From contig CM120646.1 in assembly GCA_051362555.1 (NCBI GenBank), positions 21,018,001 through 21,082,000 on the forward strand: a DNA stretch of 64,000 bases, in the 5' to 3' direction. Positions 14,349 to 54,592 of this stretch are shown piece after piece. Source of the DNA: Lingula anatina (taxonomy: Eukaryota > Animalia > Brachiopoda). Under the pieces are notes generated by a model. It was given only the letters and a program-made list of their open reading frames with translations. It was not told the origin of the DNA and did not search any database. Each line of letters opens with the position of its first letter. Positions within the stretch are counted from its first letter, which is position 1. The position numbers were made by a program, and so were the translations under genes.

Positions 14349-14406
14349 ATGGAGGCCAAAGTTATCCTTAGTTTTGCAGTTTTGTCGGTCTTTGCAACAC
14401 AATATG
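14349..14406 (+). CDS. Ly6/uPAR-like GPI-anchored protein A, exon 1 (signal peptide)
   Basis: aagATGG start; MEAKVILSFAVLSVFATQY+G|gtgagt. The phase-1 donor joins GA of exon 23242 to give ...TQYGSA|RDC; paralogous exons at 28840 and 44319. Confidence 0.85.
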
Positions 14407-14809
14407 GTGAGTAAAAAAATAAATGCTATTCCTTTGACAGCACCCTATTTCTTAGTGCAGGGGCACAAAAATGTTTTTTCAAGTAAAAAAAAAACGAAGT
14501 TGATCAGGATAGCCTCAGATAGGTTGATTGGAATGTTTAACTCGCAGGATCGTGAAGCACGGAGGGAAAGGATAAATAGCATATATTTTTGTCCTGAATT
14601 TCCTGTTTTCCCACCAATACCTTAACAATATACCTTAACAATATACTTGCCCATGTCCGATCTATGAATAACATAGAATAATACGCACGTACATGTAGGC
14701 TACCTGTGCCCAGATCGCTGTTACATCTGCTTATCAGCGGCATGGATTACAACGTGACAGGGAATTAAAAACGAATTAAAAGATAAAAAGAAAAAAAACC
14801 TAAATGATC

Positions 14810-14864
<55 letters not shown>

Positions 14865-17190
14865 CGTGAAATTTTCTTCTGCGTGTTACGCCAAGCAGTT
14901 GGGTCGCTGCTCTCGCATCTCATGACAAACAGCTGTGATATAAATGCCTAGCATTCATTGAATGTTGCTTTGAGAGAAGAAATGTTTATTCTGCAGTGAA
15001 GATACTGGTACTCTTTTTGCTATTGCAGGTATATTCGTAATGTACCTACAAAATTTGTGATTTGTATGTATAGACATCGGTTGAGTACTAACAGAACTGA
15101 GAAGTATTTATAAAATATAGGCCGAGATTGAAAATCGGCTAGATCGGACTTTTTCCAAAAGCTATATGCAATTTTTTCGCCATTTTCAGCATATATCCAG
15201 TTCAGATAGCACATTAAGTGGAAAACCAATTAACTTATGGTCTTCAAATTACAGGAGTGATCAATATTACTAAATAAAGTAGAGGTAGAGTTCGAAAACC
15301 AGCCTGTTGATATTCCAGAGCTACTACGATTTTCGTTGTCGTAATATCGCTCTTTCTCCACGAACGATGATAAAACCTGCAAGTAACAAACTTACAATTC
15401 TTTTAAATATAACTATAGGACTAATGCGCAAGCCACACTTTAGACTCTTCTTGAAACTTGAAAATACACTGTATTTAACCTTTCGACGTTTTATAACTTC
15501 TTTCACAACTTTTACCGGTCCCAGGCTTCTCACTTAGAGTTAAGAGAACGCAAGGCGAATCTATTGTTTTGATGTTCCAGCAGCTACCAAAACTTGGCAA
15601 AAGACGAAAAATATCGAAATTATTAATCGATAAACAGACATGTAGCAAGGAGAAGGTCCGCTTTCTCAGTGGTGTTCTTGTAATAGTTAACTGAGGAAGT
15701 CTACTTGTAAAAGCAATTATTACTGTATGAAATTTTAATAAGCCAAACTGAGTATGCGGCCTCTGTGTCAGGGAGAGGAAATCGAGATGCCGGAATGAAA
15801 TCTGACGCTCGCTAAATACTCACGAAGAACCTAGGACCCAAAATATATTTATTATTGATACAAAATACATTTATTATAGATGCAAAATACATTTCCTATA
15901 GATACGCACTGATATGACAGATATGCGGACAGACTGATGGATGTATTTATAATAAACAATCAAGTTCACTCTCTTGGGCTGCGGAAGCGAGACAGTTGCC
16001 CTTTTGCCAGAGACAGTTGCCAGAAAGTTTCATAAAATAATTTGGGGAGAATCTTAATTATGTGGTAGTCTTTTCCGTTTTCTCAGTCCTTCAGAAGACT
16101 TACTTTTCCCTCCATCTCTATGATACCACAGGCGGTACAACTCCAACAAACCAATTTTGCCTACGGGTCTCTCAGTACAGTCATCTTACACAACGCAGTC
16201 CTGTGATACATAATGCGTATAATTCTAAGCTCACTAATTTAAAGGTGCACAGGGTTGACTACAGAGAGAGTGAATACCTTTAGCTAAGATCACAGGAGAG
16301 GGCGAGTGCATACCTGTAGCTAAGATCACTGGGTAAAGGGGCAAAGTGGAATCAACAGTCTGCATACATGTACCACCGGTGTAAAATATGGAGGAGTTGG
16401 CAAAGATGTAGGCCTACCATTTTTTTTAAACTGACGAGAAAGAGGTTGAAAGTAATGGGGTTGTGATGATATGACGCCGAACCATCGGGGCTATATAATG
16501 TCCGCTGTGTCTTACTGTGAAATGACGTTTTCTAGATGACCGATGAGTTCAGACCAAGGGGGCTGAAGGGGCGGGGGGGGGGGGGGGGGGGTCACATGCC
16601 ACATCTGAGATAAATCTAGCGTCGTGTCGCGGGATTTGATGGAGTGTGGTCGGCAATAATAACAGATTAGCGACTTTTGTTTCTCCTACGTTCTGTAAAA
16701 TTTCAGCCTACATTGGACAACAGTAAAAATTCACCATGCTGAGAGCGTCATTTTTGTGCTGTTTTCAAAGACGTGGCATTTTTTATGACAAACTATTGGC
16801 GTCACCCTCAATCGCAAAGGGTGATATCCATTAGTTGTTATTCATGGACATCATGCCTGAAAATAAGCGACCCCTGCTTGAATTTTCTGTCCGTCTCATT
16901 GTCTCCTCTACCATTCTCTGGTCACAGTGTTCACAGTCAGGCGCCGGACATTATGCTCCTGAATAATGAACTGCTATCTTCAAGTAGGTTAAGTCGATGG
17001 TACTGAAAGAGAGAGAGACAGAGGCCTCTTAAAGTCTCATAGCCAGATAAGAGAGAGTGGTTTCTTTCTAAGTGTCATCGTTTTATGATACCTTATCCAT
17101 GTAACAGAGCTTGGTTTAGGAATGAAGTCAATTTCCTTACATAAATTCTCTCTGGACAGTAGAGAAAAGGGTACAGAAAATTTGCCCGAG

Positions 17191-17360
17191 CAGGCCCGTA
17201 GCCAGCAATTTCAAAAGGGGGGGTGTCTTTTTTCTGAAAAAGGGGTCCTTTTACCATGCAACCTTCGTGTACCTAGATAAAATTTTACCCAGAGGTGACC
17301 TTTTCCCAGCAAAAAGGAGGGGGGGGGGGGGTCTTTTGAACTCCCCTGGCTGCGGGCCTG
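17191..17360. mobile_element. short MITE with CAGG..CCTG TIRs (hAT-like)
   Basis: caggcccgtagccag / ctggctgcgggcctg; G-run interior; a decayed relative lies at ~28087-28266; TSD not evident. Confidence 0.65.
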
Positions 17361-17441
17361 CAGCGAGACTGTCTTTGAATATCTATTGAAAATCGATCTG
17401 TGGTCCTGATACGTAACATGAACATGTGGGTTTAAGACACG

Positions 17442-17536
17442 AAGTTGTTTTCGCTGGTTGAGGGTTGTAGTCTGTTCAGTGTTACTCTTGAAGTATCACT
17501 GAACAGACTACAACCCTCAACCAGCGAAAACAACTT
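17442..17536. repeat. perfect 40-bp inverted repeat with 15-nt loop
   Basis: aagttgttttcgctggttgagggttgtagtctgttcagtg (17442-17481) is the exact reverse complement of 17497-17536. Confidence 0.95.
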
Positions 17537-18335
17537 AGAGTACCTTTTTCTTAGTATTATTGGTCTGTTTTTAGGTAAGACGCTTCTAACTACCAAGCGA
17601 ATGAACATTTTGCTCAGGACGTTAACGCTTTAAAATTAGGTTTTTAAATATTGAATAGTCAGAGAGTTGGAAAAAAAAACAATTGAAACCAAATAAACAA
17701 TCATTCAGATGTTGCCAATTGAAGTTGTGTGACTTCTTTCGTTTTCTGAAGTCACGAGCAGAAAAATCCGGTTCAATATTATATATAATCATTTATTTAT
17801 TTATAGTTTCGTGCTCGTGACAAGCTTCGTTGTACATTGAACCCATTGTACTACTTATTAATTTTTTTTGCTCAAGTAGCCATAATATGTGCATAATTTT
17901 ACACGTTATCAAAGAACAGGGTTACAATGCAGTGAGTCATGATAGATATCAGGGAATGATTTTATGGGTCCTTTGCAAATGCGTTTATATTTTAGTATGT
18001 ATTAAATAACACAAAGAATGCGTAAATATTGCTCCGCGTCGTGGCTCCAGCTGCTCACAGTGAAAGAATTCTTTGTGCATTAATATGTTTAAAAACAATG
18101 CCTAGCTGTAAAATGCCCAGCAGATTGAATGTAACCCACTGACCTCGTGCCGGCCGAAATGTAGCCCGCATAAGAAATGACCTGCCTGCAGTTACGTGAT
18201 GGACCATGTTCCAGCTGAAAAATTTATGTGATGAAATTTAAGGCAGTTCTATATATCCACCTACTGTTCAGATGTCAATGAAATCTTACTGTCGTGCAGA
18301 TATTAATTTTCTCAGTCATTCAATGCCGTAATGCG

Positions 18336-18338
<3 letters not shown>

Positions 18339-18378
<40 letters not shown>
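18339..18378. repeat. (CT)n microsatellite
   Basis: ~20 CT units. Confidence 0.9.
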
Positions 18379-18382
<4 letters not shown>

Positions 18383-21300: not shown

Positions 21301-23241
21301 TTCTTTTGATTTTTAAAAGCATTCTTCACGCCGAACGCAGTGACAGGCCTGACCTACTTCCGGTACGAAACGCCTGTATATGTCGATGTCAGAGCCAAAC
21401 TTACTGCTGCGGACACCTTCAAACGGCACAGGAGCAAAATTAATTCACATAACAGGCAGTTACACCATATGATCTAAAAAATGCACAGGCAATCCATCAT
21501 TTGCAATCATGGGGAAATTAAATCGGCAGTAAAATCGACTTCATGTGCGATGTGATAAATATACGCCTTATGGACTCGTTGTTTGCATTCGGCAATTTGA
21601 ACAGGTTTGGCATATCGCTGTCATATACATAGTCCATAAGGTCTGGCCGGAAAATTCGCCTTGAAATGAACATGCTGTTCCATGTAAAATAATTGGAGTG
21701 TTATTAATTTCAAATATACGGTACCAAAGTAATTACTTTTGGGTCCTCTAAATTCACACTCCTTGCCAATATGCCATGATTTATACATTTAGACTGGAAC
21801 TTTTTTTTCTTATTAATGTGGTGAGTTGGTCAGACACTAGGAGCAGCCAAATTGACACCTACTCTCTTGTGACCATGCGTTAGTATCATAGGAATGGTAG
21901 AAGAGCGCGATTGAGTACTGGTAAACAACCAAGTCAGTTCCTACAAAAATGGCATGGTCAAATTAGCCGTATTCCCGTCAATATAGGACTTCTTTTTTGG
22001 TTAGATGCATTAAGCTAACACAGTGCAGCAGCAGCAAATATTTTCCTCATCAAGGCTACGTTGCGTGCTGCCGCCTGTTACCGTTTAAAAACAGACTTCA
22101 CTCATCGCTTGATCAGGAATATCTGACCCAATCAACGAAAATAAGAGCTTCGCTATCGCCCTGACATCTGGATGAAAAAATAAACACTACGATTATAGGT
22201 CTGAAGGTCAATCACCTTTGCACCGACAGTCACCATGACGAGTCTTGGCGGAATAAGATTTCCATTGTATATCATAATTTGCATATGCAGACAGTGTCTG
22301 TGTCTATATTTATAATGATCACGCTGTCTATGCCGTCGCTGTCCGAAATATTGCTTAAACCTTTCTTATTTGTTTTCTATTAAGACAGTTTCTCTTTGGA
22401 AATGAGCATGAACGAATTATTTTTACGATAGTTCTGGAAATTTTTGCATGTAATTTGGCGACGGTCAAAAATGCCTAACTGTAATTATTTCAATTTTAAA
22501 TTTGATTTTTTTAGGAAAAAAGCGGGACTCTTTCTTAGTTTGATAGTGGATACGATTGGATTATTTTTGCATTTTTTGTTATGAACAAATTGTTTTGTAC
22601 ACCGATTTTGAAACCATCCCTTTCATTGAGAACTTTTTATATCAAGTTCAAGCTGTAAATAGCGGAGTGGTGTAAAAATTATATGAAGCATTTTCCACCA
22701 AGACCAGAAAATCATGTTCAGATTGCCCCAGTCACTCACGGGTAGGTCTCACAAAATAGAATAACCCGTATGGTGGTCTAAAATTTCAGGCCAAACATAC
22801 GGACCATGTTAGTTTTGAGTAAATTCATAGTTGCACTCAATGATAAAGTTACTATAGTGCATTTATAGGTGAAACAAATTGTAACCATTTATCAATATTA
22901 ATAAGGAGATTGCAGCCGACACTTCGTCATACTTGTATGCCTATCAAATTGCGTTAACTTTCGTCGCCGCACTTTCACCCAATCGACTGAAATTGAACTA
23001 GAGCCCTGAAAGTAGTCCCGTTGTGACTGCTGTGACGAAACAGAGACATCAGGTAACAAAGATTCGCACAGGTTCGGGTTAGCATGACGTAAGTGGGTCG
23101 GAATCTAGGAAAGGTCTAGCCCGTATTTCAGCCGATGCATTACACCGTGCTTAAAGCGCTCATATCATGAAAAATGATCAGGGATTTTTGTCTCTATCAC
23201 GTCACGTCACGTGTAGTTCAAATCTATCCCTCTCTTTCCAG

Positions 23242-23471
23242 GAAGCGCCAGAGACTGCCGATTTTGCATGTTCCTCCACATGCGGTACAGCGGTATGCCT
23301 CAAATTGAGGGCATGAACTGGGACAGCATCCTTCCTTCATCTGTGCCAGGTATGAACGATACTGCTTGCTATGATGGCACCAGTACTGAAACGATGCCTT
23401 GCGGGGATAACCCTTGCACACTGACAGACATGCAAGTGGATATTTCTGCGTCCATGCCGATTAGCCAGGAT
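23242..23471 (+). CDS. Ly6/uPAR-like GPI-anchored protein A, exon 2
   Basis: tctttccag|GA AGC GCC AGA GAC TGC CGA TTT TGC... GAT|gtaagt; 230 nt, encodes Cys1-5; same length and phases in all three paralogs. Confidence 0.92.
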
Positions 23472-24084
23472 GTAAGTATAGGGCCTATTTGTTGTGCCTT
23501 GTTTAATTATTCCTGTCATAAATTTATTTGTTTTTCTGGTTAATACTTTATTTGAAGACTGCTTTGTGAGAATCAACTCGTTAATGACAGAGAAAGGGAG
23601 GGAGATAGAGAGAGGGTGAGGGGTGGAAAGACAGAGGATGGAGCGAGGGGAGGAGGGATATTTGTGGTCACCTTCACGTCTAGACGTTCTGTAAGCTTTA
23701 TTGGCTGTAACATTTTCGACCGTGGCTGTCACAGTACTTGATGAGTTTGATTTAGTTTAGACATGTTCTTGCACTTGGCAATGTAAGCTTAGTTTCAAAT
23801 TATTGGTTGAATAAATTTCTATGTCCAATATCCAAATACATAATGTGAAATTTGAATGACGTCTATAGTTTACGGATCATGAACACATATACATATAAAT
23901 GTTCAGTACCACTCACATCCTCATTGCCATATCCACATGCTTTTCCGACGATGTTCTGGTACAATGGCATGGGTATACCCCTGCCATTCATATATAATAT
24001 CTACAAAATACTAAATGCAAATAGGCCTACACACCCTATTCACATTAGTTTTCAATTTGTCTACTTTCCCTTCGACCTTTTCAG

Positions 24085-24477
24085 CAAACAATCAGTTATT
24101 CGATGACCATGACAATGGTGATGCGCATGTGCGGACAGGCTGGAAGTACAGGGTGCACCCCTATCACCATGGACACCCCAGTTGGACCGCCTCAGCCACC
24201 AAACAACGAACGGCAGACGCTCAGAGAGCAGATATCCCAGCTGGTGCAAAATGCGAACATGTCCATCACCCCCACGATCTCGGGACAGCAATGCGCTTGC
24301 GCTAGCGGTGACAGTTGCAATTCGGCAGCATCCGCTATGTCTCTGGTCGCCGCTGCTTCCACCAGCGCAGCACCAGAGCCCACCAAGGACGGACCTAGTA
24401 ATGACGGACAAGTCCTTCACTTCAGCGCCATCTACAGTTTCTTTTGCATCGCCATCTTTGCTGTTCTTTTAAATTAA
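24085..24477 (+). CDS. Ly6/uPAR-like GPI-anchored protein A, exon 3 (Cys6-10, stalk, hydrophobic tail); full protein 226 aa
   Basis: ttttcag|CAA ACA ATC AGT..., in frame with ORF 24103..24477; QQCACASGDSCN motif, S/T/A-rich stalk, ends AIYSFFCIAIFAVLLN*. Confidence 0.92.
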   Translation, partial: QTISYSMTMTMVMRMCGQAGSTGCTPITMDTPVGPPQPPNNERQTLREQISQLVQNANMSITPTISGQQCACASGDSCNSAASAMSLVAAASTSAAPEPTKDGPSNDGQVLHFSAIYSFFCIAIFAVLLN

Positions 24478-25933
24478 AGACAAGTTAGCCGTAGGCCTAT
24501 TGATAAATTCGTAGGGATACATGTTGCTATCTTTTTATTTAACCCCCCCCCAACAGTAACAAACATTTCAATGTGAATGTTAACGTAAGTAGATTAATAC
24601 ATTTGTTAAGTGAGAAATTCAACTATACATAATTTAGAGTAATTTCATATTGCGTTACCCGCTTTTCAGAGATCTAATCCATATAGATTCACACTGACAG
24701 GTTCACTGATCTTCATTTTTAACAACCATTATTAGTGATCATGCTTTGTAATCGGAGTTTAATTACAGCTGTGAACATAAATTGGATTTATCAGTAGGGG
24801 CTTACATAGTGCAGGTACATGATTAGTTGCTTACATTAGGCCTACATACCAGTGTGTAGGCCTTACTACATGAAGTACCTTTGTAACAAATAATTGAAAG
24901 AAACGTTCTGATTTTTTTGGTTGGGTGAGATTTCATTAAATAGGAAGCTTCTTCCTCTCTTTCGAGTCCTTCCAATTAATGGAATTATTAATGGTGATTT
25001 TACCTCGGTCGATCCTTAGCGTTCCCTTTACACCTGTATTCTTGGAGTTTGATTTTGCATCTTTAGTAGTGCTGATCTCTTTGCAATTAAAAATATTTGA
25101 TGGAATGTAGTCTTAGACGAAGCTATTATTTTAGTGATAAGTGATACGCAGTCATTTTGGACTGAATCTTCATGTACGTGCATTTTTGTCCTATTAGTTA
25201 GAGCAGTATTCAGATGAAAAGGTTCTTTGCAGTTTATATAAAAGTTACAAGCAGGGAGTTTGCTCATTACAAACCTTGAATATCGTACGCGTAGAAAGAA
25301 AACCCGTGGCCATGAAGTTCGATAGCCTTTCAGAGATTGAGATAGTCGAGGCTGATAGCCAGGGTTTTAAACTGGTCAACCCTGTATTGTTATACTTTTA
25401 AGCAAAATTATTTTTTACACTGAGATCTTCCAACGAAGTGGTTTGTCGAAAAGTCCTTATTAGTTGTCAAGAAGTGCTGACCGATGGGTTGTTATGGTAA
25501 CTGTTTTTATGGTTACTCGCTTGCCGCTTTACGGCATTCAATCCTATGATCGTCAGCCATATTGAAAGAAGGAATCCTTATAAGATTTTGTTGTAAACAA
25601 AACTTAAAACAAGATTTTGTTGTAAACAAAACTTAAAACATTGAAAATATCGCGTACAAAGTATGGGGCACTGTTTCGGTTGTTTGTAACTGTATTTTGG
25701 GCATGACCCCGAACTCTAACATAGCAAAATGTGTGGAATTGCAAATGATGGAATGTAACAGATGTGTTGCCGTTGACGTGCCGGCGATGGTTGGGCTTAT
25801 GATCAGGTATTGTCTTTACTGAGAGGCTCTCGTTATACAGGCATGTTCTTCATCGGCGGCACACCGATGATTTTGCACACCAATCGCAATCAAAGGCCAA
25901 TTGCTAAAACGATATGGGTCAAACTTGAAACTA

Positions 25934-26050
25934 AGATCCCATTCCCACAGATTTTAGATCGATTTATCCCTGTGGGGAGTCTCACTAGATTACTGTCAGC
26001 ATAGCCGGCTTAAGCGTCTGTCCCGCCTACTAAAAGCTGTAAGGGGGTAA
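25934..26050. mobile_element. truncated copy of the recurrent palindromic MITE family
   Basis: ccattcccacagattttagatcgatttatccctgtggggagtctcactagattactgtcagc matches 31050-31115 and the reverse complement of 35360-35430. Confidence 0.65.
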
Positions 26051-27065
26051 TTAACTAAAAGTTTACCCCCTAATTAACTAAAAGTCAGAGGCCAAAAACC
26101 TGGATCAAATGTCAGAGCCATTGCTATGGTGTAGTTTACATGTAGAAAGCCACATTGAGCTATAGCTCTGTTCTTCTCAAATGTTTACATCAGTATTAGC
26201 ATTTTGGAGGAATTTAGTCTTCTTTGTCTTTTGTGTTAGCATTATTTTTATTCAGTTAATACGGCCTTAAGACTGGTATTCAAACTATGGTATTTGTTTT
26301 GTTTTTTTAACATGTATCTTGATTATTAAATAAATGTTTTTTTTTCGTGTCGTTGTCTTTCACCTATTTTATGATTGAGTCGACAGAAATTGCCACTAAA
26401 AAGTTACATTAGTTACTAGACATTTTCATCAGTAATCTTAAAGTTTTGTTGACAGATACATCGAAGTTAAGTATTTTTTTGCGACTCTCTCACTCTTAGG
26501 GCCCAGGTAGTGAAGACTACGCTCAACAGGATAAATGCTATACTCTCGGCGGGATGATTCAGTAAACGTTTTTCTAAAAAGTCATGTCGACGTATTTGCT
26601 TTAATTGAAAGAACCCCAGATTTAGTCTCAGAATGCGTTTTTTTTCACGGTTGCGTGAAGAGCAAAGCAGACAGTTTTGTATCCTCAGGTACGCTGCGTG
26701 TTGATTACCACCCACATGCCATTTGCAAATCCCACAAAACAATTAAGGGCAGATCGGCGGTGATTTTAAACATTTGTTAGAGTCATCTTTTAAGAGATCG
26801 ACAGCCAAACGTGTAATTCCCAGTCTCCGTAAGTTAAGATGATGGTCTAGATATATTTAAAGCGTTTCCTCCATAATACAGTGCAGTCATTTTGTCAAAA
26901 GTCAAAACTGTTTATAAATTTTAGCATCCCAGTGTGACACAAATGGTAGTCCTAGGAATGGAAGACCGGACTGAGATCGTTTCAAGACTGGACAGGTTCA
27001 TGGTGACCAGTGAAATTTAAAGCGGGCTGATTTCGACTTTGTCAGCTGCGTCCCTAACCAGCATC

Positions 27066-28839: not shown

Positions 28840-28897
28840 ATGACCGCTAAAGCTTTGGTCAGTTTTGCAGCACTTGTGGCCTTCGCTACACAATATG
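28840..28897 (+). CDS. Ly6/uPAR-like GPI-anchored protein B, exon 1 (signal peptide)
   Basis: MTAKALVSFAALVAFATQY+G|gtaagt; 12/19 aa identical to exon 1 of gene A; same phase-1 donor. Confidence 0.87.
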
Positions 28898-30789: not shown

Positions 30790-31265
30790 GAGACCATTCC
30801 CAGAGACTATCGTACTAACTTTGGATGGAACTATCTCCAAGGGGATTCTCGCTTTATTGCAATTAACTTAAGCGGCTTAGATGTCTGTCAAGCCTACTGT
30901 AGCTGATAAGGGGTAATTAACAATCGTTTAGCAGCTTTAGCAGGAGTGCCAGACATCTGAGCCACATAAGCTGAAAGCAATTTAGCGAGAAACCCCGTGG
31001 AGATGGGCTGATCCTGTATGATCGATCTAAGGATGGGAACCAAGTCTAAGGGACTATTCCCATAGATATTTGGATCGATCTATCTCCCTGGGGAGTCTCA
31101 CTAAATTGCTGTCAACTTGGCCGGCTTAAATGTCTATCAGGCCTAGTAAAGCGGATTTGGTAGGCGTGACAGACATTTAAGCCAGTTAGTTGATAACAAT
31201 TTAGCGAGACTCCCCGGAGTTAGATCGATCTAGATGGATCGATCTGTGTATGGGAACCCAGTCCA
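30790..31265. mobile_element. two adjacent copies of the recurrent palindromic MITE family in intron 1 of gene B
   Basis: 30790-31046 matches 13464-13686; 31050-31265 is self-complementary (ggggagtctcactaaattg...caatttagcgagactcccc; ggcttaaatgtct/agacatttaagcc). Confidence 0.75.
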
Positions 31266-32511: not shown

Positions 32512-32741
32512 GAAGTGCCAGAGAATGCAGGTTTTGTCAGTTCATCAACATGCGGTACAGCGGTCTTCCAAAAATAGAGGGCATGGACTTCGATAAGCTG
32601 CTTCCTTCGTCTGTGCCAGGAATGAACGACACGGCTTGTCATGACGGTACCAGTACTGAAACAATGCCCTGCGGGGATAATCCCTGCTTGACGGCAGACT
32701 TGCAAGTAGATATATCGGCGTCTGTCCCCATTGGAGAAGGG
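32512..32741 (+). CDS. Ly6/uPAR-like GPI-anchored protein B, exon 2
   Basis: cttcttccag|GA AGT GCC AGA GAA TGC AGG TTT TGT... GAA GGG|gtaagt; 230 nt; SARECRFCQFINMRYSGLPKIEG...CGDNPC. Confidence 0.92.
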
Positions 32742-33015: not shown

Positions 33016-33420
33016 AACTCGATCAGCTACGGAATGGTTCTGACAATGGTGATGCGCATGTGCGGTACAGCCGGGGCCACGGGTTGCTCCCCTCTCACCA
33101 TGGACACAAGGATGGGACCCCCTCAGGGCCCCAACAACGAACAGCAGACTATCCGCGACTTGCTGGCCCAGATGGCGCAAAATATGAATCAGTCTGTGAC
33201 CCCAGCTTTGTCCGGCCAGCAGTGCATGTGCGACAGTGATGGCTGTAACTCGGCGAAGTCCACCATGTCGCTGGTGGATGTGGCCCCCACTACTACCGCC
33301 GCCGCCACCACGGGGTCACCAGACACGGCCACCAAGGGGGACAAAAACGGCGGAGCTTCTCCGCACAGCGCCATCTATTGTTTCGTATTGATGGTCTTAA
33401 TTGCTGCCTTCAGCATGTGA
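33016..33420 (+). CDS. Ly6/uPAR-like GPI-anchored protein B, exon 3; full protein 230 aa
   Basis: aacag|AAC TCG ATC AGC TAC GGA ATG, in frame with ORF 33034..33420; QQCMCDSDGCN, Thr/Ala stalk, hydrophobic C-terminus AIYCFVLMVLIAAFSM*. Confidence 0.92.
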   Translation, partial: NSISYGMVLTMVMRMCGTAGATGCSPLTMDTRMGPPQGPNNEQQTIRDLLAQMAQNMNQSVTPALSGQQCMCDSDGCNSAKSTMSLVDVAPTTTAAATTGSPDTATKGDKNGGASPHSAIYCFVLMVLIAAFSM

Positions 33421-35212
33421 GGTTGGATTATGTGGATGTAGAAACTGTCTAAATATAGACTAAATATTGTTAGTCAGAAAAATTATATGAATTGGAATAA
33501 TCCAAGGTAGCCCAAGTTTCGCAAATTAGCGTAAAATCAAGCGAGGTTTTGAGGAGAGTTGGATAAGAAACAATTAAGGCGACGAGTGGGGCAACGAATA
33601 AAAACTAACAGAATCTATCGACATACAGGTATATACTGAGTAGTTCTGGTTGTTTTCTTACCTCATTTTCTAGTCTCAGTGCCAACAGTCTTAAACTAGG
33701 ATGGTTTCAATTGATAGATATACCGTAGAAAATCATTAAGGTTATTTTGTGCTCGTTAACTTGGCAATTGGATACATATTGTTGAATAGCACGTAGGTAA
33801 AATGTGGCTAAAGTAAATGTGGGGAGTTTTGTGTAGTACTCATACAATGCAACTTGGTAAGTTGAATATCTGCGCAGTTGAAAATAATATCAAGAATACA
33901 AAGTAAATGAAGGCATTCCGAGACTGTGTTTTTTTAATTCTGGCTATTTTCAACTGTGATTAATAGGGAAATTAATTTGGAACTACTTGTGTCACTGTTA
34001 TAGCTTGTGTCACTGCTCACTAAGTTTAAGGCTAGAAGTTTAGTAGATTATTTCAAGTAAAAACTGTATTTTAAAAAGAATTCATTTACATTTTTGATGT
34101 TACATAAGGAAAAACTTAAATTTAGAGCCTGGTATTCTCGATACACGAGGCCAGCGGACTGACAGTTTTACCCCTATTCTTTATGAATTTGTTTACTCTT
34201 TAAGTGATCTCGATCTCCCTGCATGAGCATTTGCCAACCTTTGATTCACCATATCATGACAGCATTTTACGCCTACTGTTCTTAGTCAAAACAATAAAGA
34301 TTACCACGTCAAAGTTCCAAATAGATGAGCTGCGCCCGTCTACCGATTTTCATTAAAAGTTTATGCGAAATTGTGAAATGAGACGGAGTCGGGATAACGT
34401 CAGACCAATGTCATCTTGCCATCAGAAACTGAAGGGCAGCCATTGTGAAACGATTGTATAGGCCTATGTAAAAGATTTAATTGAATATGGAATTATTACC
34501 GGCTTTCTTTGGTCATCTATCCCCTCTTATAGTGTTCTTTGTAGTGTCAGCGTAATATAATGATATTCATACCGAAATAAACTGTTATTTCAAGGTAAAA
34601 TGCTATTTTGTTGGATGTTCCATTTATCGCACGGATAGGACAACCGCACTGTGCTGTCTCAACTATCGCATTTTAAAAAAATAGCCTTGACTCTAATGCT
34701 CACTCTCTTTTAAGCACACGACTGGATATTTGTTGATTTTTACGAACACCCCCACCCCCACCCCCACCAATTACGCTCTTTGGGCCATTTACTTTTCACA
34801 CCATGTAAGGTGACAATTCTTTTAAAATCGCTGTACGGAGGGGAATGGTATTTATTGACTCTCTTACTGCGTAGGATAGATTCTCCAGCTACTGTCAGAA
34901 GGGAACCCAAGGGAACGTCTCTAATAAAAACTATGAAGAGGGCTTTCGTTAATGACTTTTTAAGTGAGTGCTCAAGTAACATTTTAATTTTTACATTGTT
35001 TGTTTTAATCAATTTTTTTAAATGAGGATGATTATTATTATTATTATCATTATTTGTCATTTTCTTTCCTACTTCAGTTAGATAAACAGCAGCAATATGT
35101 AAGTCAATGATAATAAACTCTTGGTTGCAGAAACACCGGCAAACTATACAATGTACACCAATGAAAATACAAAAGAAATGCACGTCTAAGTACTTGATGC
35201 ACATTATTACAC

Positions 35213-35434
35213 TTAGACCCCATTTCCAGAGATTAGATCGATCTACTTTAGATCGACCTAACTCCCTGGGTGTTCACGCTAAATAGCTGTCAGCCGGGCG
35301 GACACGAAAGTTAATTACCACCTTACAGCTTGTAAAAGTCGGAACGGACATTTAAGCCGGATTATCTGACAGTAATCTAGTGAGACTCCCCGCGGGGATA
35401 GATCGATCTAAAAGCTCAGGGAATACAGCCTTAC
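35213..35434. mobile_element. palindromic MITE, same family, flanked by TTA (PIF/Harbinger-type TSD)
   Basis: tta-gaccccatttccaga...gggaatacagcc-tta; internal agatcgatct motifs and gagactcccc are shared with the other copies. Confidence 0.65.
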
Positions 35435-38340: not shown

Positions 38341-38721
38341 TTAAGAGAACATAGCCACAAAAGGAATGATCAGCACGGTGTAGATGGCGGCTCGGAGCGA
38401 CCCTGCCCCCGTTGTGGGTCCAGTTGTAGTGACCGGGGCTTTAGTAGTGGTCATTTCCACCAAGGACATCGCGGACGGTTCCTTGTTACAGCCGTCACCG
38501 TTAGCGCATGCGCACTGCTGTCCAGAGATCGTGGGGGTGATGGACATGTTCGCATTTTGCACCATCTGGGATATCTGGTCTCTGAGCGTTGACTGTTCGT
38601 TGTTTGGTGGTTGGGGCGGTCCCACTTTGGTGTCCATGGTGATAGGGGTACACCCTGTACTTCCGGCCTGTCCGCACATGCGCATCACCATTGTCATGGT
38701 CGTCGTGTAACTGACCGTTTG
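38341..38721 (-). CDS. Ly6/uPAR-like GPI-anchored protein C, exon 3; full protein 223 aa
   Basis: Minus strand ttccag|CAA ACG GTC AGT TAC..., in ORF 38341..38745; QQCACANGDGCN, Thr-rich stalk, AIYTVLIIPFVAMFS*. Confidence 0.92.
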   Translation of the reverse strand, partial: QTVSYTTTMTMVMRMCGQAGSTGCTPITMDTKVGPPQPPNNEQSTLRDQISQMVQNANMSITPTISGQQCACANGDGCNKEPSAMSLVEMTTTKAPVTTTGPTTGAGSLRAAIYTVLIIPFVAMFS

Positions 38722-38909
38722 CTGGAATGAAAGGAAAATAGGCATATTTCAAACGTAGCCACCAATCGAGTTTGCAGGTACATGGATAGGATGGTACCAT
38801 ACCTTCGTGTCATGGGAAGAGCAAACGTCAAAATGACAATGAAGACACATTGCAATTAAAATAAAATCAAACTATAAAGTATTTTTAATAGTTGAAAGAG
38901 TAAACACCG

Positions 38910-40720
38910 ATTATGAAATTATGACACCTGACGGTCTTTGTGTGTGATTAGAAGCTTTCGAACTTCTGATAGAGGTACTCGTTGCTGCCCTGTCATGGAG
39001 GAGTATAGTGAAATACCCCAATGAAGCTTCTGTTTCTTCAGATATTTTTTGATGAGAATTGTGCAACTCATAGAACGTTGCAGTCAATTCGTCATGTGTT
39101 CCCAGACTTTCCATGCAGTTTTCTTTTCCACTTGGGCAAATTGGGATACAGTGTCGCAGTCTATGCAAGTATAAACACTGGACATTCATGTACCAAGATT
39201 TCTGTGAACTAAGTGATGCACATATCTCACTAGCAGGAATGAAGCGGAACTTCTTGCTTATACTAAATGCAACCAAAAGGTCGGCCCTTCCTTGTTGTGG
39301 CAGAACAACTACTGCAAGTACAACTACTGTTCGAACAAAGATCTATTTAAAGCCAAGCATGATGGCATCAGCAGTATGTACCATGATTCTGGAATCTGCT
39401 TCCCAATGGTTTTTGGGAGATAGGTTGGCCATGTGTTGAGCAGGGGCACAGTGTGGGCACAGTGCACATGCTACATTTGTGTTAAGGGTTTCAACAACTC
39501 TGTCTTGTTGTCGTTCATGCGAAGAAACTGTTTCCAGTTCCTTGGTATGGCGCAAGACAACTCCACCCGTCTTCGTTGTGTTGGGCCTCTCCTTCACGAA
39601 GGTAGCATACCGCCCTTTCTCTGGTTCTTGCTTTTAGGCTGTTGTTGAAATACCGGTCTCATGCAACGTCTCCATTTTGAGCCTGATTTTGTTGGCTTTT
39701 GATTTGAGGGAACAAACACCTTTGCAGTGTCGTCACCAAATCTTGCCTCCGCCAGGTGTGGAAATGCTGTGCTGGCGAGTAACGCACCATCCATAATGCT
39801 TACATCTGTTCTTGGCCTTACATGGAGATGAAAATTTCACGTGTTGCTCAAGGCAATCTATAAGGTGAGAATTCTGCCGTGGCAAACGAAGCTGCCCAAA
39901 GAAAGATAGAAATAGTGGAATTGGGTGGTTTTCATTGCTTAAAAAGCTGCCCAAGTCACCATTTCTTGTCTGGCATGCAACAGATACATGTAACCTTGAA
40001 CAGAGAGAAGATTCACTTTGGAAAAAACTGGCCTTTGAGTCGCCTTACAGGAGAGTTGTGCTTGTTTGTTGAACGGTACTGTGTTGTTTATGGTAATGGT
40101 AGCTGTTATTGGCTTTGTATTTGTCAGAAGACGCTCCTTCACGAAGGTTGCATACCGCCCTTTGCCATTTGTTTGTATGGACGTGTGGTACTCAGTTCAT
40201 TCCTTTTCCATTATGTCCAGTAATTGTGGTCTGGAAATGTCTAAACTCTCCTCCTGAAATGGGTTTCCCTTGTCGTCGATTATATTCACCAGTGAATTAA
40301 ATTGTTTGGCAAATATCCTCTGGGTGGCATCAGTTTGCTCATGGCAGTTTGTTTGGCTGCCACTCTCTCTTTTTCCTACAATGGATGCTTCAAACTCCTC
40401 AAATGGGTTCTGGCCCAGGTACAGCCCATCGCAGAAGAGCTTCGTCATCAGGTGTCAGTCCAAACATTCCACCTTCATTTTTCATCACCCCGTTGTTTTG
40501 CTCATGACCATGGTCAATGGCTATCAAGAAAGGCAAATGTTCTTTGAAACTTGTCCAAAACGAGCTTCCCCTTCAGGAATTTTTGAGCAACATCAGCATG
40601 GGTTGCACCAAGGCTACACACGTAAGTTATTACAGGAACAGACATTCATCGGGCGTAATGAGTATAGTTTAGACAAGATATGTGCATCAAGAGCCTTGTG
40701 TACTTACACAGCTTCTTCAG
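38910..40720 (-). mobile_element. decayed Academ (AcademX, transposase + XPG-like nuclease) DNA transposon coding relic in intron 2 of gene C
   Basis: Frameshifted minus-strand fragments in the expected order: NYTHYAR, IDHGHEQNNGVMKNEGGMFGLT..ALLRWAVPGPE, HEQTDATQRIF..GNPFQEES, FVKERL, QTRNGDLGSFLSNENHPIPLFLS, IMDGA, HWEADSRIMVH, VAFSISKKFRFIPASEICASL, FTILLHDR. These resemble motifs I recall from Academ transposase/XPG proteins; many stops and frameshifts. Confidence 0.75.
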
Positions 40721-40881
40721 AGTGATGCTAATATGACAACATAAATTAACATAGATATTAACATACCTGTACATAAAAAAAACAATTTGAGACCATCCTT
40801 TTGCATTGGTTGATAGGAAAATATGTTTATTTGTACTGGTTGCTAGGAAAATGGTGTCTATAGTAACTGCCCTATACTTAC

Positions 40882-41111
40882 ATCTTGGCCAATCGGCGTG
40901 GAGGCAGAAATATCCACTTGCAGATCTGTCAGTGTGCAAGGGTTATCCCCGCAAGGCATCGTTTCAGTACTTGTGCCATCATAGCAAGCTGTATCGTTCA
41001 TCCCTGGCACAGATGAAGGAAGGATGCTATCCCAGTCCATGCCCTCGATTTGAGGCATACCGCTGTACCGCATGTGGAGGAACATGCAAAATCGGCAGTC
41101 TCTGGCGCTTC
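40882..41111 (-). CDS. Ly6/uPAR-like GPI-anchored protein C, exon 2
   Basis: Minus strand ttccag|GA AGC GCC AGA... CAA GAT|gtaagt; 230 nt; 12 nt differences from exon 2 of gene A. Confidence 0.92.
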
Positions 41112-42077
41112 CTGGAATGAAAATCATAATGAAGCGTGATAAAACTCAATCACAGGATAATCGTTAGTTTCCTATGTAAACAACTGTTTCATCTCTGCTT
41201 CATGCCACCAAGAATATCCGACGTATGTTGTATTGCTGTGTATAACATTTAAAAAAAGTTTTATTAAAAAAAAAAAAAGCAAGCAAGCAGAGAAGAGCAT
41301 CATGCGATTTATGCAGTTAAAGGTGGATGGATATTGTTTTCCCAGTCTTAGTTGTATCATGCAGAAATGTTCTTGGAAAATTTTGACCAATTTCCAATAA
41401 CCTTGGACATCCCCCCACCCCCACCCCCACCCCCAGATCCACTCCTGGTAACACTATGACTCAAAGTGTTACACACGCACATCGTAATGATAAGGTTATC
41501 CGAACGCAAATTCTACCTCCATTGTGACCTTTAACTGCCTTAAAGCTAATTCCATTTATTTCTGGTAGCACTGGGAATTTAAAAAAGCCTTTAAATACTG
41601 TTCGTACACCCAAAATTTGACACCCTTCATAGTGCCAGATTCAAGTCACATGTTGCTGAGATACGCTGCATTGTCGGATAGAGTTGAGTCCAATATGGCG
41701 CCTAACATGTCATGGGTGGTTCAAGTGCATTTTCTAAATGCATATTTGAATAAAAACAAACAAGGAGAGTCGCGTTATTGTTATTCAATTCACAGCTGTA
41801 AAATGCATATACGCATAACTCAAAATGTTTAACTGAACCTGCTTTTTTAATTGCCAGTCCCTAAAAACGGTGCAATTCATTTAAGTTTAACAATAACTGC
41901 CTTGTACGGGTTGTCTATTCAGTGTCTATTAGCGGATTTGACGGCTAGCTTTGTAGTGGGTCGCCATATTTGATCCTCGGACTAGTTAGTCTCTATTCTG
42001 AATGGGGCCTTAGACTATTGCACACTATTGTACTCCAGTCAGCTGTTCATGCGCATAAGGTTGCGTGTATATCCCAC

Positions 42078-42746
42078 CACCCTGAGCTTCAGAGATAACT
42101 TGACACTAACCTCTTCACAATAGCCTATCTTCATCGTGTCAAGTTACCTCTGACCACATTCGATTGCCCCCGCCGCCCGCCAATCAAATTTAAAGCCCGC
42201 ACTCAATGACTCATTGAACGATCTAGCCAATGAACGCGAACGAGTCAAAGCGCGCTTTGTTCAAATCCGGACCAATCAGAGATAAGGCTCAATATCAGGG
42301 ACTTACCGTAACCTGTGAGCAGCACGCAAAATACATCATCCCTCAGTAGATAATGATGCAGGGCCTCAAACTGCTCTGGTTTCAATTCCGATATACTTTT
42401 ATTTTGCAAAGAATCAAGAGATAACTTAACACATTATTTTACGTAGTCACTCGTAGAAGACGCCATGCTTTCTTTGTGTACGGTTATGCACTCGGCACTA
42501 CTCGGATGTCTCCGCACTCGACAATAACTTTGTTGTTAGTATGGAGCTTGCGGAATCAGCCGAGGATTACCGATTGACGGTCAACCAATCAGCGTTTTCA
42601 CCAAACTTTGGTGAAAATTTTTGAAACTTGGATTCGATTGGCTTATATAAACTAGGTCAAACTATTTTCGTCAGAGGTAACTTGACACGATGAAGATAGG
42701 CTATTGTGAGGAGGTTAGTGTCAAGTTATCTCTGAAGCTCAGGGTG
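42078..42746 (-). mobile_element. non-autonomous AcademH-like DNA transposon (77-bp TIRs, 9-bp TSD) with RecQ-like helicase fragment
   Basis: TIR caccctgagcttcagagataacttgacac...ttacctctgac (42078-42154) vs 42670-42746, one mismatch; TSD atatcccac at 42069-42077 and 42747-42755. Minus strand from ATG ~42466 reads MASSTSDYVK*CVKLSLDSLQNKSISELKPEQFEALHHYLLRDDVFCVLLTGYGKSLI (Q motif + Walker A). Confidence 0.85.
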
Positions 42747-43929
42747 ATATCCCACTGGCCTGCATAAAAAAGCACTGCTGTTACGACCTTCTGTTTGCGA
42801 AAATGCGGTTTATCACTTTTCACAAATATTTTTCAGATTTGACATTTTTCTGGCTGCCAGGGGCAACAGCCACCAGGTGAAAATATTTACACGTAACAGT
42901 GTAAAAATAACAGCTCTCTGCCAAGCAGTTGTGTAATATACTACACATACAACGTTTTACACATCAACTGAATAACAGTACAATAAAACATACTGTACCA
43001 GTGCGGCAAAAATTCGTAGACCTTGATGCAAGTCTGATGATTGTTTAAATTTCAAAATTTCTACTCTGATTTATTAATTTGTATTCAGAGGGTTGTGTGA
43101 TTACATGAACAAAATATCTCCATTCTGTCCCGACCAAAAACTATGATGGGCATTTTGATGCCGATTACCGTTTAAGGATAGTTAGGAAAATGTAGTAATG
43201 ATGGTGTCAAATTTACGCGTTCGACGAAATTAAATACAGGTTCAATATATGTTATTTTCATTTTCCACCACGGTTCACAGAGCGTTATTGATAAATCTAC
43301 ATGCAGCTTTGCTCGATGCTCAATCCGAACTAATAGCAGATAACCAGCTTCTTCAGAATGCTTATTGATCGCGGCATCCACAGCAGACAATATTGTATTT
43401 CTACAACCGGTTCCATGTGTAGTCTTCAGCGCTGATGGTTAATCCTTAGGCACGAGATCGTAAAAATAAGCTACAACTGACGCTCAATCTAGTTTTGTTT
43501 ACCGTTATACGCATTAGCTTTATACAGTGTATACACGACATAATTTACATCTTGCACCGAGTTAGTTGGTTTTCATTCAAAAGGGTTTGTAGAGTGATTG
43601 TGACTTTTATCAATATTTTCTGTAAAATAATAATAATAATAAAAATATAGAAAAAAATTAGCGTAACTGTTGCCCTTCTCTCACAAGCCACTTTGCTAAA
43701 AAAATCCGAAATTAGTGTAACTTATATCTGGGTATTAACAGAAACCATGGATATCTCTCCATATTACTCTACCATCCTTTCTTTCTCTCTCGTTCGGTGC
43801 TTTTCTCTTACACTGTACAATATTAACCTGCAAACCACAGTGAAACCTAAGACATTGCCAGTCAAATTTCAGTGTACCAAAATTCAGAAACGAACGTTTT
43901 AAAACACCTGTGTCCCTTTTTTATTAAAC

Positions 43930-43944
43930 TTTTAGTGGTCTGTG

Positions 43945-43983
<39 letters not shown>

Positions 43984-44043
43984 TCATCTCTCAATATGCT
44001 CTTCATACCTTTATCCCTTTTCCGTATTAAATTTTAGTGGTCT

Positions 44044-44096
<53 letters not shown>
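43930..44096. repeat. duplicated ttttagtggtctgt + (ATT)n microsatellite
   Basis: Two (ATT)n tracts (~43947-43983 and ~44045-44096), each preceded by ttttagtggtctgt. Confidence 0.85.
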
Positions 44097-44098
<2 letters not shown>

Positions 44099-44258
44099 AT
44101 ATGTTCATCATCTTGGCCTTGCCCATGGCGTTTTCAACACCGCCTGAGCAAACTACCCCGATATGTCATTCTTCACTCCTTCAGACACCACACTGCAGAA
44201 AAATAAAAGATCATGACCATTCGGTGATCGTAAAACGCACAGGAGCTATACTACCTAC

Positions 44259-44319
44259 CATATTCCACTACCAGGGCTACCAAGACTGCAAACTTTAACA
44301 CAATATTGCTGGCTGCCAT
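44259..44319 (-). CDS. Ly6/uPAR-like GPI-anchored protein C, exon 1 (signal peptide)
   Basis: Minus strand ggaaagATG GCA GCC AGC...GAA TAT G|gtaggt; MAASNIVLKFAVLVALVVEY+G; shares FAVL, terminal Y-G and the phase-1 donor with exon 1 of gene A. Confidence 0.85.
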
Positions 44320-53109: not shown

Positions 53110-53132
53110 TCACACACACACACACGCACGCA

Positions 53133-53164
<32 letters not shown>

Positions 53165-54546: not shown

Positions 54547-54592
<46 letters not shown>

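What the first reader, a model, noticed from the sequence alone, without database searches (positions are those of the whole stretch)
14349..44319. Cluster of three genes for an atypical, expanded Ly6/uPAR (three-finger) GPI-type surface protein family
Seen: three intact 3-exon genes (A +, B +, C -) with identical intron phases (1, 0) and an invariant 230-nt exon 2, giving 226/230/223-aa proteins. Each has a signal peptide ending YGSA, 10 Cys spaced C-x2-C-x33-C-x10-C-x4-C-x33-C-x7-C-x45-C-x-C-x4/5-CN, a conserved S(A/T)MSLV motif, an S/T/A stalk and a hydrophobic tail. Established: CxxC at the mature N-terminus, a terminal C-x-C..CN, this exon layout and a GPI signal define Ly6/LU proteins such as quiver/sleepless and Lynx1, whose domain is normally only about 70-100 aa. 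Inference: here the domain is ~150 aa because all three fingers carry large insertions, suggesting a lineage-specific family with a new binding surface (channel/receptor modulator, immune or matrix protein). The ORF track shows none of these genes whole.
Basis: partly seen in the sequence, partly recalled or inferred. Interest (0 to 1): 0.8.

Follow-up and report, generated by a model that had tools for sequence, protein, structure and literature searches.

The report
Oversized three-finger proteins in a brachiopod
Three neighbouring genes of the lamp shell Lingula, two of them seen spliced in RNA, encode likely membrane-anchored Ly6-type "three-finger" surface proteins whose domain is nearly twice the usual size and whose extra parts are predicted to pair two copies together; this is an unusual variant of a well-known family, and its binding partner is still unidentified.

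Summary
The three 3-exon models translate as stated and match RefSeq "uncharacterized" Lingula anatina proteins. RNA reads span both junctions of A and exon 1/2 of C; B is almost unexpressed in the 7 runs laid. The LU/Ly6 reading is likely. There are ten Cys ending in CN, and intron 2 sits at the tip of the predicted second hairpin. LU structures take the top four fold-search rows, at low Z. Pfam sees nothing. The domain is 150-157 aa against the usual 60-100. Two further paralogues exist; no credible relative outside Lingula was found, but brachiopod sampling is thin. New here: (1) ESMFold2 predicts a homodimer built from the inserted finger segments (0.46 vs best control 0.02); (2) the domain is under purifying selection (dN/dS 0.15-0.19); (3) A and C share the domain but not signal exon, introns or tail, likely through gene conversion. 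Best reading: a GPI-anchored, probably dimeric surface adaptor for a conserved host partner. Lingula already has 101 catalogued three-finger proteins, so this is a new variant of a known kind. Interest 0.4.

The parts
14349..14406 (+). Gene A exon 1 CDS (signal peptide), followed by a phase-1 intron of 8835 nt
   Evidence: junction reads in 4 of 4 runs
23242..23471 (+). Gene A exon 2 (230 nt): Cys1-5, finger 1, first strand of finger 2
24085..24477 (+). Gene A exon 3 CDS: Cys6-10, finger 3 with helix, CN, S/T/A stalk, GPI-type tail, stop TAA at 24475-24477; RNA depth continues into the bin ending 25436
28840..28897 (+). Gene B exon 1 CDS (signal peptide)
   Evidence: protein identical to RefSeq XP_013385217; junction reads not seen
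32512..32741 (+). Gene B exon 2 (230 nt)
33016..33420 (+). Gene B exon 3 CDS, stop TGA at 33418-33420
44259..44319 (-). Gene C exon 1 CDS (signal peptide, 61 nt)
   Evidence: 28 junction reads in X7
40882..41111 (-). Gene C exon 2 (230 nt)
38341..38721 (-). Gene C exon 3 CDS, stop TAA at 38343-38341
   Evidence: indirect junction reads
23233..23484 (+). Likely gene-conversion tract 1: 94.8% identical over 252 nt to 41120-40869 (inverted), including about 10 nt of intron on each side
24048..24347 (+). Likely gene-conversion tract 2: 84.7% identical over 300 nt to 38754-38459 (inverted), ending just after the CN motif

Best explanation
These three intact paralogous genes encode likely GPI-anchored Ly6/uPAR (three-finger) surface proteins whose 150-residue domain is predicted to form a dimer through its lengthened fingers, and which likely act as non-enzymatic adaptors for a conserved protein of the animal's own cell surface. 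Steps and their status: (1) SHOWN: A and C are spliced and expressed, differently between samples; B is intact but nearly silent in the runs laid. (2) INFERRED from hydropathy: a signal peptide of about 22 residues is cut and the hydrophobic tail is swapped for a GPI anchor 20-24 residues from the end. (3) INFERRED from family knowledge: ten cysteines pair 1-5, 2-3, 4-6, 7-8, 9-10 into the LU core, held off the membrane by a 22-31-residue S/T-rich stalk, with an N-glycan site just before Cys3 kept in all five paralogues. (4) PREDICTED: the 33-, 33- and 45-residue fingers are not floppy loops. Finger 2 is a long hairpin of two 16-residue strands, finger 3 carries an amphipathic helix, and the tip of finger 1 of one copy packs on the other copy's sheet and helix. 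(5) INFERRED by analogy with insect Ly6 proteins: the dimer helps traffic, assemble or tune a partner membrane or matrix protein in a differentiated tissue. (6) INFERRED: gene conversion between the inverted copies A and C keeps their domains alike while signal exon, introns and tail diverge. Odds by step: LU-type fold 0.88, GPI anchor 0.85, A-C conversion 0.8, dimer 0.45, adaptor for a conserved self partner 0.55.
For: LU type: 10 of 10 Cys and CN are invariant in 5 of 5 paralogues down to 31% identity. Intron 2 falls at residue 96|97, the tip of the predicted hairpin 78-93/97-112, where Leth et al. place it in LU genes (PMC6600238 section 4). In one search, LU proteins take ranks 1-4 of 48,161 chains: CD177 Z 4.9, rmsd 3.9, 86 aligned; CD177 second entry 4.9; TEX101 4.4; GPIHBP1 3.9. 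C4.4A and Lypd6b follow at ranks 10-11, all aligned across the whole domain. The Atlas's nearest named clusters are QVR/Ly6, by features 0.89 and by structure TM 0.54 over 99 residues (leads only). Dimer: ESMFold2 score 0.46 (runs 0.46/0.39/0.49), best of 3 controls 0.02, contacts agree at least 79%, partner pLDDT at least 75. The mark was reached by 21 of 30 solved pairs and 0 of 23 single chains in microbes; in eukaryotes by 17 of 29 pairs (animals 7 of 16; 1 of 7 without an older solved relative) and 0 of 30 single chains. 43 of 48 interface residues lie in the three lengthened fingers, and 15 of 46 are hydrophobic in all five paralogues against 12 of 93 elsewhere (p 0.011). No PDB sequence relative was found that the model could recall. 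Conserved partner: dN/dS over the domain is 0.15, 0.19, 0.17; over single fingers 0.05-0.37. Conversion: 106 of 138 informative sites group A with C inside the domain against 22 of 88 outside (p 2e-14). A-C introns align no better than shuffles (score 52 vs mean 53; simulated duplicates at the domain's divergence score 469-662).
Against: The fold evidence is weak in absolute terms. AlphaFold2 pLDDT is 50 and 53. The best Z, 4.9, is below the tool's typical chance best of 7-8. With the second model CD177 (Z 3.5) ties with a trypanosome VSG. No Pfam LU-clan family was hit at E up to 10. Disulfide pairing was not read from coordinates. The predicted interface is not more conserved than the rest (8 of 46 vs 18 of 93 invariant, p 1.0), the finger-1 tip differs in the distant paralogues, and it includes the invariant N-glycan site, which could clash. 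A lone copy folds nearly as confidently beside control partners (pLDDT 69-72), so the contact could be intramolecular. LU homodimers of other geometry are solved (PMC7053344), so a pass from memory is not excluded. Only B was modelled as a dimer. No partner, tissue or phenotype is known. The stalk alignment behind part of the conversion test is uncertain.
Confidence: 0.5

Rival explanations
1. The fold and anchor are as above, but the protein is a monomer: the finger-1 tip folds back on its own sheet, and the predicted dimer is a swapped version of that contact. The insertions then only add a second layer to an enlarged LU domain.
For: The lone copy reaches pLDDT 69-72 beside unrelated partners. 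The interface is hydrophobic but not extra-conserved, as an internal core might be. Most single-LU proteins act as single domains (PMC7053344 passages).
Against: The dimer passed the tool's mark with a margin of 0.44 over the controls. 0 of 30 eukaryotic single-chain proteins reached the mark in the calibration. pLDDT rose to 75-77 in the dimer.
Confidence: 0.35
2. They are Quiver/Sleepless- or Lynx-like modulators of ion channels (Shaker-type K+ channels or nicotinic receptors) in nerve or muscle. This is a special case of the adaptor reading.
For: The nearest Atlas clusters are QVR-labelled. Purifying selection fits a conserved channel partner. Quiver has both activities (PMC6600238 passage).
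Against: No Pfam QVR match. The domain is acidic (net -7 to -9) with 1 aromatic residue in finger 2 and none in finger 3 of A, B, C, whereas nicotinic-receptor binders use basic and aromatic finger-2 tips (recalled, not tested). The Atlas scores lie under its 0.9 bar.
Confidence: 0.15
3. They are recognition proteins in an arms race (immunity, allorecognition, or gamete recognition like fish Bouncer), with the long fingers as variable binding surfaces.
For: The gene cluster and the lack of relatives outside Lingula fit a fast-turnover family. Reads from some runs differ at many sites.
Against: dN/dS is 0.15-0.19 over the domain and at most 0.37 in any finger. A and C are being made alike, not different. 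Finger lengths are the same in A, B and C.
Confidence: 0.1
4. They are shell- or chitin-matrix proteins, or Retroactive-like cuticle factors.
For: Lingula has 31 chitin synthases and novel shell proteins (PMC4595640 passages). Retroactive is an Ly6 protein needed for cuticle (PMC3561106). The domain is acidic.
Against: 0 of 6 accessions searched occur in a supplement that holds the Lingula shell proteome under RefSeq accessions (a GPI protein could be missed). Retroactive's two aromatic residues per loop are lacking: fingers 1/2/3 hold 3/1/0 in A, B, C, and no aromatic position is invariant.
Confidence: 0.1
5. The proteins are not LU domains at all: an unrelated disulfide-rich alpha/beta fold with a chance resemblance in its terminal cysteine motifs.
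For: No Pfam, PDB-sequence or Foldseek match. The models are low-confidence. The part distal to the core also resembles ACT-like alpha/beta layers at Z 2.5-3.
Against: Cys count, CxxC start, CN end, intron position at the hairpin-2 tip, LU proteins heading the fold search and QVR heading the Atlas all point the same way.
Confidence: 0.07

Closest known systems
Ly6/uPAR (LU, three-finger) superfamily, single-domain GPI-anchored type (CD59, LYNX1, GPIHBP1)
   Same: Three-exon gene with the signal peptide on exon 1, an intron at the tip of loop 2 and the GPI signal on exon 3; ten Cys; Asn after Cys10; small gene cluster; strand E region free to form a helix (PMC6600238 section 4).
   Different: The domain is 150-157 aa instead of 60-90. 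All three fingers are two to five times longer than in CD59 (CD59 spacings recalled). Cys8 and Cys9 are separated by one residue rather than adjacent as in the vertebrate CCxxxxCN motif. Intron 2 is phase 0. A dimer through the inserted parts is predicted.
Quiver/Sleepless-like invertebrate Ly6 proteins (Pfam PF17064 QVR)
   Same: Nearest named clusters in the ESM Atlas by features (0.87-0.89) and by structure (TM 0.54 over 99 residues); C-x-C...CN ending; signal and GPI layout.
   Different: No match to the QVR model at E up to 10. The insect domain is about 100 aa (PMC4476152). No evidence here for action on channels.
Insect Ly6 clusters (Boudin, Crooked, Coiled, Retroactive, Clusters III and V)
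   Same: Lineage-restricted clustered duplicates, purifying selection, divergent expression between paralogues, roles as accessory factors of surface complexes (PMC4476152, PMC3561106 passages).
   Different: The insect study found no chimeric paralogues, whereas A and C here are mosaic. The loops are much longer and poor in aromatic residues.
Paired LU assemblies: C4.4A, CD177, TEX101, and homodimeric three-finger proteins
   Same: Best fold-search rows (CD177, TEX101, C4.4A). LU domains burying a hydrophobic sheet face against a second LU domain are known (PMC7053344).
   Different: Those pair two domains within one chain face to face, or pair edge strands, or swap the first strand with disulfides. 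Here a single-domain protein is predicted to pair by laying an inserted finger-1 tip on the partner's lengthened finger-2 sheet and finger-3 helix.
Unnamed 180-aa mollusc cluster in the ESM Atlas (85 members)
   Same: Feature score 0.89 with 183 of 256 features shared, and TM 0.51 over 123 residues, the longest aligned stretch among the single-domain-sized hits.
   Different: No sequence match was found in the HMMER searches, so homology of the insertions is untested.

Membership tests
Ly6/uPAR (LU) superfamily | Ten conserved cysteines, beginning CxxC | tested here: met
   10 of 10 invariant in 5 of 5 paralogues
Ly6/uPAR (LU) superfamily | Non-glycosylated Asn directly after Cys10 | tested here: met
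   CN in 5 of 5; that Asn is in no sequon list
Ly6/uPAR (LU) superfamily | Three exons: signal exon, then a domain split by an intron at the tip of loop 2 | tested here: met
   Intron 1 is phase 1 at the end of the signal peptide; intron 2 lies at residue 96|97, between predicted strands 78-93 and 97-112. Intron 2 is phase 0; the review speaks of generally phase-1 flanking introns.
Ly6/uPAR (LU) superfamily | Disulfides 1-5, 2-3, 4-6, 7-8, 9-10 | not testable with these tools
   The folding tools returned no coordinates; the spacing is compatible with the pattern
Ly6/uPAR (LU) superfamily | Three beta-hairpin fingers from a disulfide core | tested here: inconclusive
   Three hairpin-like regions are predicted at pLDDT 50-53; LU proteins rank 1-4 at Z 3.9-4.9 and rank 1 and 3 at Z 3.3-3.5 among unrelated ties; Foldseek gave nothing
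Ly6/uPAR (LU) superfamily | Domain of 60-90 residues (about 100 in insects) | tested here: not met
   150, 151, 151, 153 and 157 residues from Cys1 to the Asn; hence filed as a variant, not a canonical member
Ly6/uPAR (LU) superfamily | Signal peptide and GPI-anchor signal | tested here: inconclusive
   Hydrophobic at both ends, 0-1 charged residues in the last 20, small-residue omega candidates 16-24 from the end; SignalP and PredGPI not available
Pfam QVR (PF17064) and other LU-clan models | HMM score at or above the curated cut-off | tested here: not met
   No LU-clan hit at E up to 10 for exon pieces, full-length proteins or mature domains
Quiver/Lynx channel modulators | Binds and modulates Shaker or nicotinic receptors | not testable with these tools
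   Needs electrophysiology
Retroactive-type Ly6 proteins | Two conserved aromatic residues in each loop | tested here: not met
   3/1/0 aromatic residues in fingers 1/2/3 of A, B, C; none invariant (feature from PMC3561106)

The most novel reading that the evidence does not exclude
A new architecture of the three-finger fold: the lengthened fingers build an obligate finger-1-swapped dimer, so single-domain GPI proteins pair into a composite surface. Paralogues could then pair as homo- or heterodimers, in cis or between cells, and gene conversion between A and C would keep their interfaces compatible while their expression and stalks diverge. Such enlarged LU proteins would be a class that profile-based censuses miss across lophotrochozoans.
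Probability: 0.2. Interest if true: 0.62.

Novelty: new variant of a known kind. Interest (0 to 1): 0.4.

Why it matters
LU domains are described as compact 60-100-residue scaffolds, and invertebrate censuses find them with Pfam profiles. These proteins keep the cysteine knot, the CN ending and the intron position but nearly double the domain and escape the profiles. The catalogue of three-finger proteins in lophotrochozoans is therefore probably incomplete, and the scaffold can carry a whole extra layer. The predicted dimer gives a concrete, cheap test of what the insertions are for. The A/C mosaic is a clean case of likely gene conversion limited to the domain-coding exons. It does not answer a long-standing question, and no partner is known.

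Tried and rejected
No whole genome is held for this window, so the family could not be counted genome-wide. Pfam scans gave only sub-threshold rows (Glyco_hydro_14, DUF5354, DUF6462, PHR and others), rejected as chance, except DUF5354, whose weak match covers the terminal C-x-C..CN and is an unverified lead. PDB by sequence gave 0 hits and 5 chance rows at E 0.8-1.6. Foldseek against PDB gave no match at E 0.001 for either model. P0007, a 3490-aa bacterial repeat protein at E 2e-6, was dropped: the match is to a 14-fold repeat, and Pfam shows unrelated domains. The cropped AlphaFold2 model was no better than the full-length one (53 vs 50). No RNA holder was listed by index; species-label runs were laid instead, 7 of 9. 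147 ORFs of 48 aa or more in 44.4-64 kb gave no Pfam hit; the 101 ORFs upstream of gene A were listed but, apart from two, not scanned. Rfam gave none. Three look-ups in earlier findings returned nothing. Ten literature searches listed no paper on these genes or on LU domains of this size; six gene or protein identifiers occur in 0 papers. The supplement of PMC13719153, which lists the 101 Lingula three-finger proteins, could not be read, so whether these genes are in it is open. A recent whole-gene duplication of A and C was considered and judged less likely than conversion.

Full report
1. Observation. Joining the exons at the stated coordinates gives open frames of 226 (A, +), 230 (B, +) and 223 aa (C, -). 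All introns are GT-AG, the phases are 1 and 0, and exon 2 is 230 nt in each gene. Cys spacing is 2-33-10-4-33-7-45-1-5/4/5 followed by Asn. The terminal pattern C-x-C-x(3-6)-CN occurs 3 times in all six frames of the window, once per gene, and tblastn finds no fourth copy. Intron 1 is 8835, 3614 and 3147 nt; intron 2 is 613, 274 and 2160 nt.

2. Identity. A search with exon 3 of B returned a Lingula anatina (brachiopod) RefSeq protein. Model B equals XP_013385217 at 230/230 and C matches XP_013403447 at 221/223. A differs from XP_013385219 at 2 of 226 residues (read side by side). All are named 'uncharacterized protein'. phmmer over 1.84 billion representatives gave 4 hits at E up to 0.001: the A cluster, two more Lingula proteins (P0006 = XP_013412041, P0008 = XP_013411944) and a bacterial repeat protein that I dropped. 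P0006 and P0008 are 31% and 27% identical to B and keep all ten Cys, the CN and the finger lengths (29-45 residues). A profile of these sequences found the same 5 proteins among 7,991 candidates scored. The family therefore has at least five genes in Lingula and no detected member elsewhere. That limit is soft: a 2026 census of 387 invertebrate genomes held one brachiopod genome (PMC13719153, parts 1-3 of 4 read).

3. Expression. Seven of 9 listed RNA runs were laid, 6-30% of each. A's first junction has 51, 14, 35 and 45 reads in X7, X8, X9, X2; its second has 4, 6, 6 and 59. The stranded run X2 reads the expected strand. C's first junction has 28 reads in X7 and 0 in X1, X3, X4. A joint at A's second junction with eight other letters (27, 18, 15 reads in X7-X9) matches the start of C-type exon 3, which I infer to be C's second junction. 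Reads of X1 and X3 that lay on C's exon 2 carry A's letter at 8 of 8 listed sites, so these samples express A. Depth over B's exons is under 1 in all 7 runs, and its junctions are not among the rows shown; 92 joint rows were not displayed. B rests on its open frame, purifying selection and the matching RefSeq model. The paralogues thus differ in expression; tissues are not given.

4. Is it an LU domain? Leth et al. define the domain by 60-90 residues, ten Cys bonded 1-5, 2-3, 4-6, 7-8, 9-10, an Asn after Cys10, three hairpins, and a three-exon gene whose domain-splitting intron lies at the tip of loop 2 (PMC6600238, section 4 read whole, other passages). Cys count, CN and gene layout are met. 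AlphaFold2, on only 5-6 sequences, gives low confidence (pLDDT 50 and 53) but places strands at 27-41/55-62, 78-93/97-112 and 160-168 with a helix at 142-153. Intron 2 falls at residue 96|97, the tip of the second hairpin, a fact independent of the model. Against 48,161 solved chains, the full-length model ranks LU proteins 1-4 (CD177 Z 4.9, rmsd 3.9, 86 aligned; a second CD177 entry 4.9; TEX101 4.4; GPIHBP1 3.9), with C4.4A and Lypd6b at 10-11. These Z values are under the tool's usual chance best. With the cropped model CD177 (3.5) ties with a VSG, and Foldseek finds nothing. The ESM Atlas returns QVR/Ly6 clusters by features (0.87-0.89, under its 0.9 bar) and by structure (TM 0.54 over 99 residues). 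Pfam gives no LU-clan hit at E up to 10. Each line is weak; together they make LU ancestry likely (about 0.88). The size criterion is not met: 150-157 residues.

5. What the insertions may do. ESMFold2 folded two copies of B's mature domain three times: score 0.46 (0.46, 0.39, 0.49), best of 3 controls 0.02, contact agreement at least 79%, partner pLDDT at least 75. In the calibration the mark was reached by 21 of 30 solved pairs and 0 of 23 single chains (microbes). In eukaryotes it was reached by 17 of 29 pairs (animals 7 of 16, but 1 of 7 without an older solved relative) and 0 of 30 single chains. The interface lays the finger-1 tip (B residues 47-59) on alternating residues of the partner's finger-1 and finger-2 strands and on the finger-3 helix; 43 of 48 interface residues lie in the lengthened fingers. 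They are more often hydrophobic in all five paralogues (15 of 46 vs 12 of 93, p 0.011) but not more often invariant (8 of 46 vs 18 of 93). The finger-1 tip differs in the distant paralogues, and the invariant glycosylation site N58 sits at the edge. A lone copy reached pLDDT 69-72 in the controls, so the same contact could form within one chain. Solved LU pairings use other geometries (PMC7053344 passages), and PDB holds no sequence relative. I put the dimer at 0.45.

6. Evolution. dN/dS over the domain is 0.15 (A-B), 0.19 (A-C) and 0.17 (B-C); single fingers give 0.05-0.37 (Nei-Gojobori; dS with B is above 1 and imprecise). The genes are mosaic. Of 138 informative sites in the domain, 106 group A with C; outside it, 22 of 88 do (p 2e-14; exon 1 alone 7 of 26, p 2e-6). 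Within exon 3, A-C synonymous differences are 14 of 52 sites in the domain and 28 of 36 in the stalk and tail (p 3e-6; the stalk alignment is uncertain). A-C introns align no better than shuffles, while a simulated duplicate at the domain's divergence scores ten times higher. The shared tracts stop about 10 nt into the introns around exon 2 and just after the CN motif. In run X7, which has both A-type and C-type exon 1 junctions, 7 of 8 well-covered diagnostic exon-2 sites show one letter in at least 89% of reads. Gene conversion between the inverted copies is the simplest account (0.8); a recent duplication with wholesale intron and tail turnover is the alternative.

7. Function. No partner is shown. 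Purifying selection and homogenisation argue for a conserved partner of the animal's own and against an arms race. A shell-matrix role is weakened: 0 of 6 accessions occur in a supplement that lists the Lingula shell proteome by RefSeq accession (PMC13425148, supplement searches only). Retroactive-type aromatic residues are lacking (PMC3561106 passages). Channel modulation like Quiver remains possible but has no specific support. Insect Ly6 proteins act in adhesion-complex assembly, cuticle formation and neuronal tuning, and expand as lineage-specific clusters under purifying selection with divergent expression (PMC4476152 passages). I commit to a GPI-anchored, probably dimeric adaptor that helps traffic, assemble or tune a host surface protein in a differentiated tissue.

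8. Novelty. Clusters of divergent Ly6 genes are ordinary, and Lingula already has 101 three-finger proteins by Pfam search. Whether these genes are among them is open, as the supplement could not be read; the lack of any Pfam LU-clan hit here suggests they were missed. Ten paper searches listed nothing on these genes or on LU domains of 150 residues; subscription journals are largely not covered. A starfish survey describes most single-LU proteins as up to about 150 residues in total (PMC11595613 passages). The genome paper's one supplement held as text has no Ly6 terms (PMC4595640). An unnamed 180-aa mollusc cluster suggests enlarged forms occur elsewhere. Verdict: a real, expressed, new variant of a known kind; interest 0.4, and about 0.6 if the insertion-built dimer is confirmed.

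Noticed in passing
window 8273-9568 (+): 3' exons of a DNAJC9-like gene, the upstream neighbour of the cluster (Pfam HTH_DNAJC9, E 1e-26).
   Followed up: partly
window 5992-7583: Tandem array of a 146-bp unit, 10.9 copies, 96% matches.
   Followed up: no
window 3885-5542 and 5457-5748: An 841-bp direct duplication at 95% identity, followed by a 290-bp palindromic stretch built of 49-bp units; it could be real or an assembly feature.
   Followed up: no
window 17191-17314, 25934-26057, 30809-31263, 35212-35430, 41914-42720: Short interspersed, partly palindromic repeats that collect most RNA reads laid on the region; the reads run on into other sequence, so they probably come from copies in other transcripts. 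MITE-like by inference.
   Followed up: no
RNA runs X7-X9 laid on window 23242-24330: These runs carry transcripts with A's exon 1 and with C's exon 1. Yet in X7, at 7 of 8 well-covered exon-2 sites where the window's A and C differ, at least 89% of reads show a single letter. This fits recent homogenisation of the two domains; the runs also differ from the window at many sites.
   Followed up: partly
proteins P0001 and P0004: RefSeq holds 198-aa forms of B and A that start at an internal Met and lack the signal peptide and Cys1-2, probably 5'-incomplete models. The copies of A on two scaffolds are identical over 198 aa, which suggests a haplotype duplicate.
   Followed up: partly
mature domains of A, B, C: They are rich in methionine (13-15 per domain) against 2-5 in the distant paralogues; several of these Met lie in the predicted interface.
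   Followed up: no
ESM Atlas: An unnamed 85-member, 180-aa, mostly mollusc cluster resembles these proteins over 123 residues and may be another enlarged LU family.
   Followed up: no
window 44400-64000: No Pfam match in 147 ORFs of 48 aa or more and no Rfam match; the region holds 159-bp and roughly 340-bp degenerate repeats at 45024-46669.
   Followed up: partly
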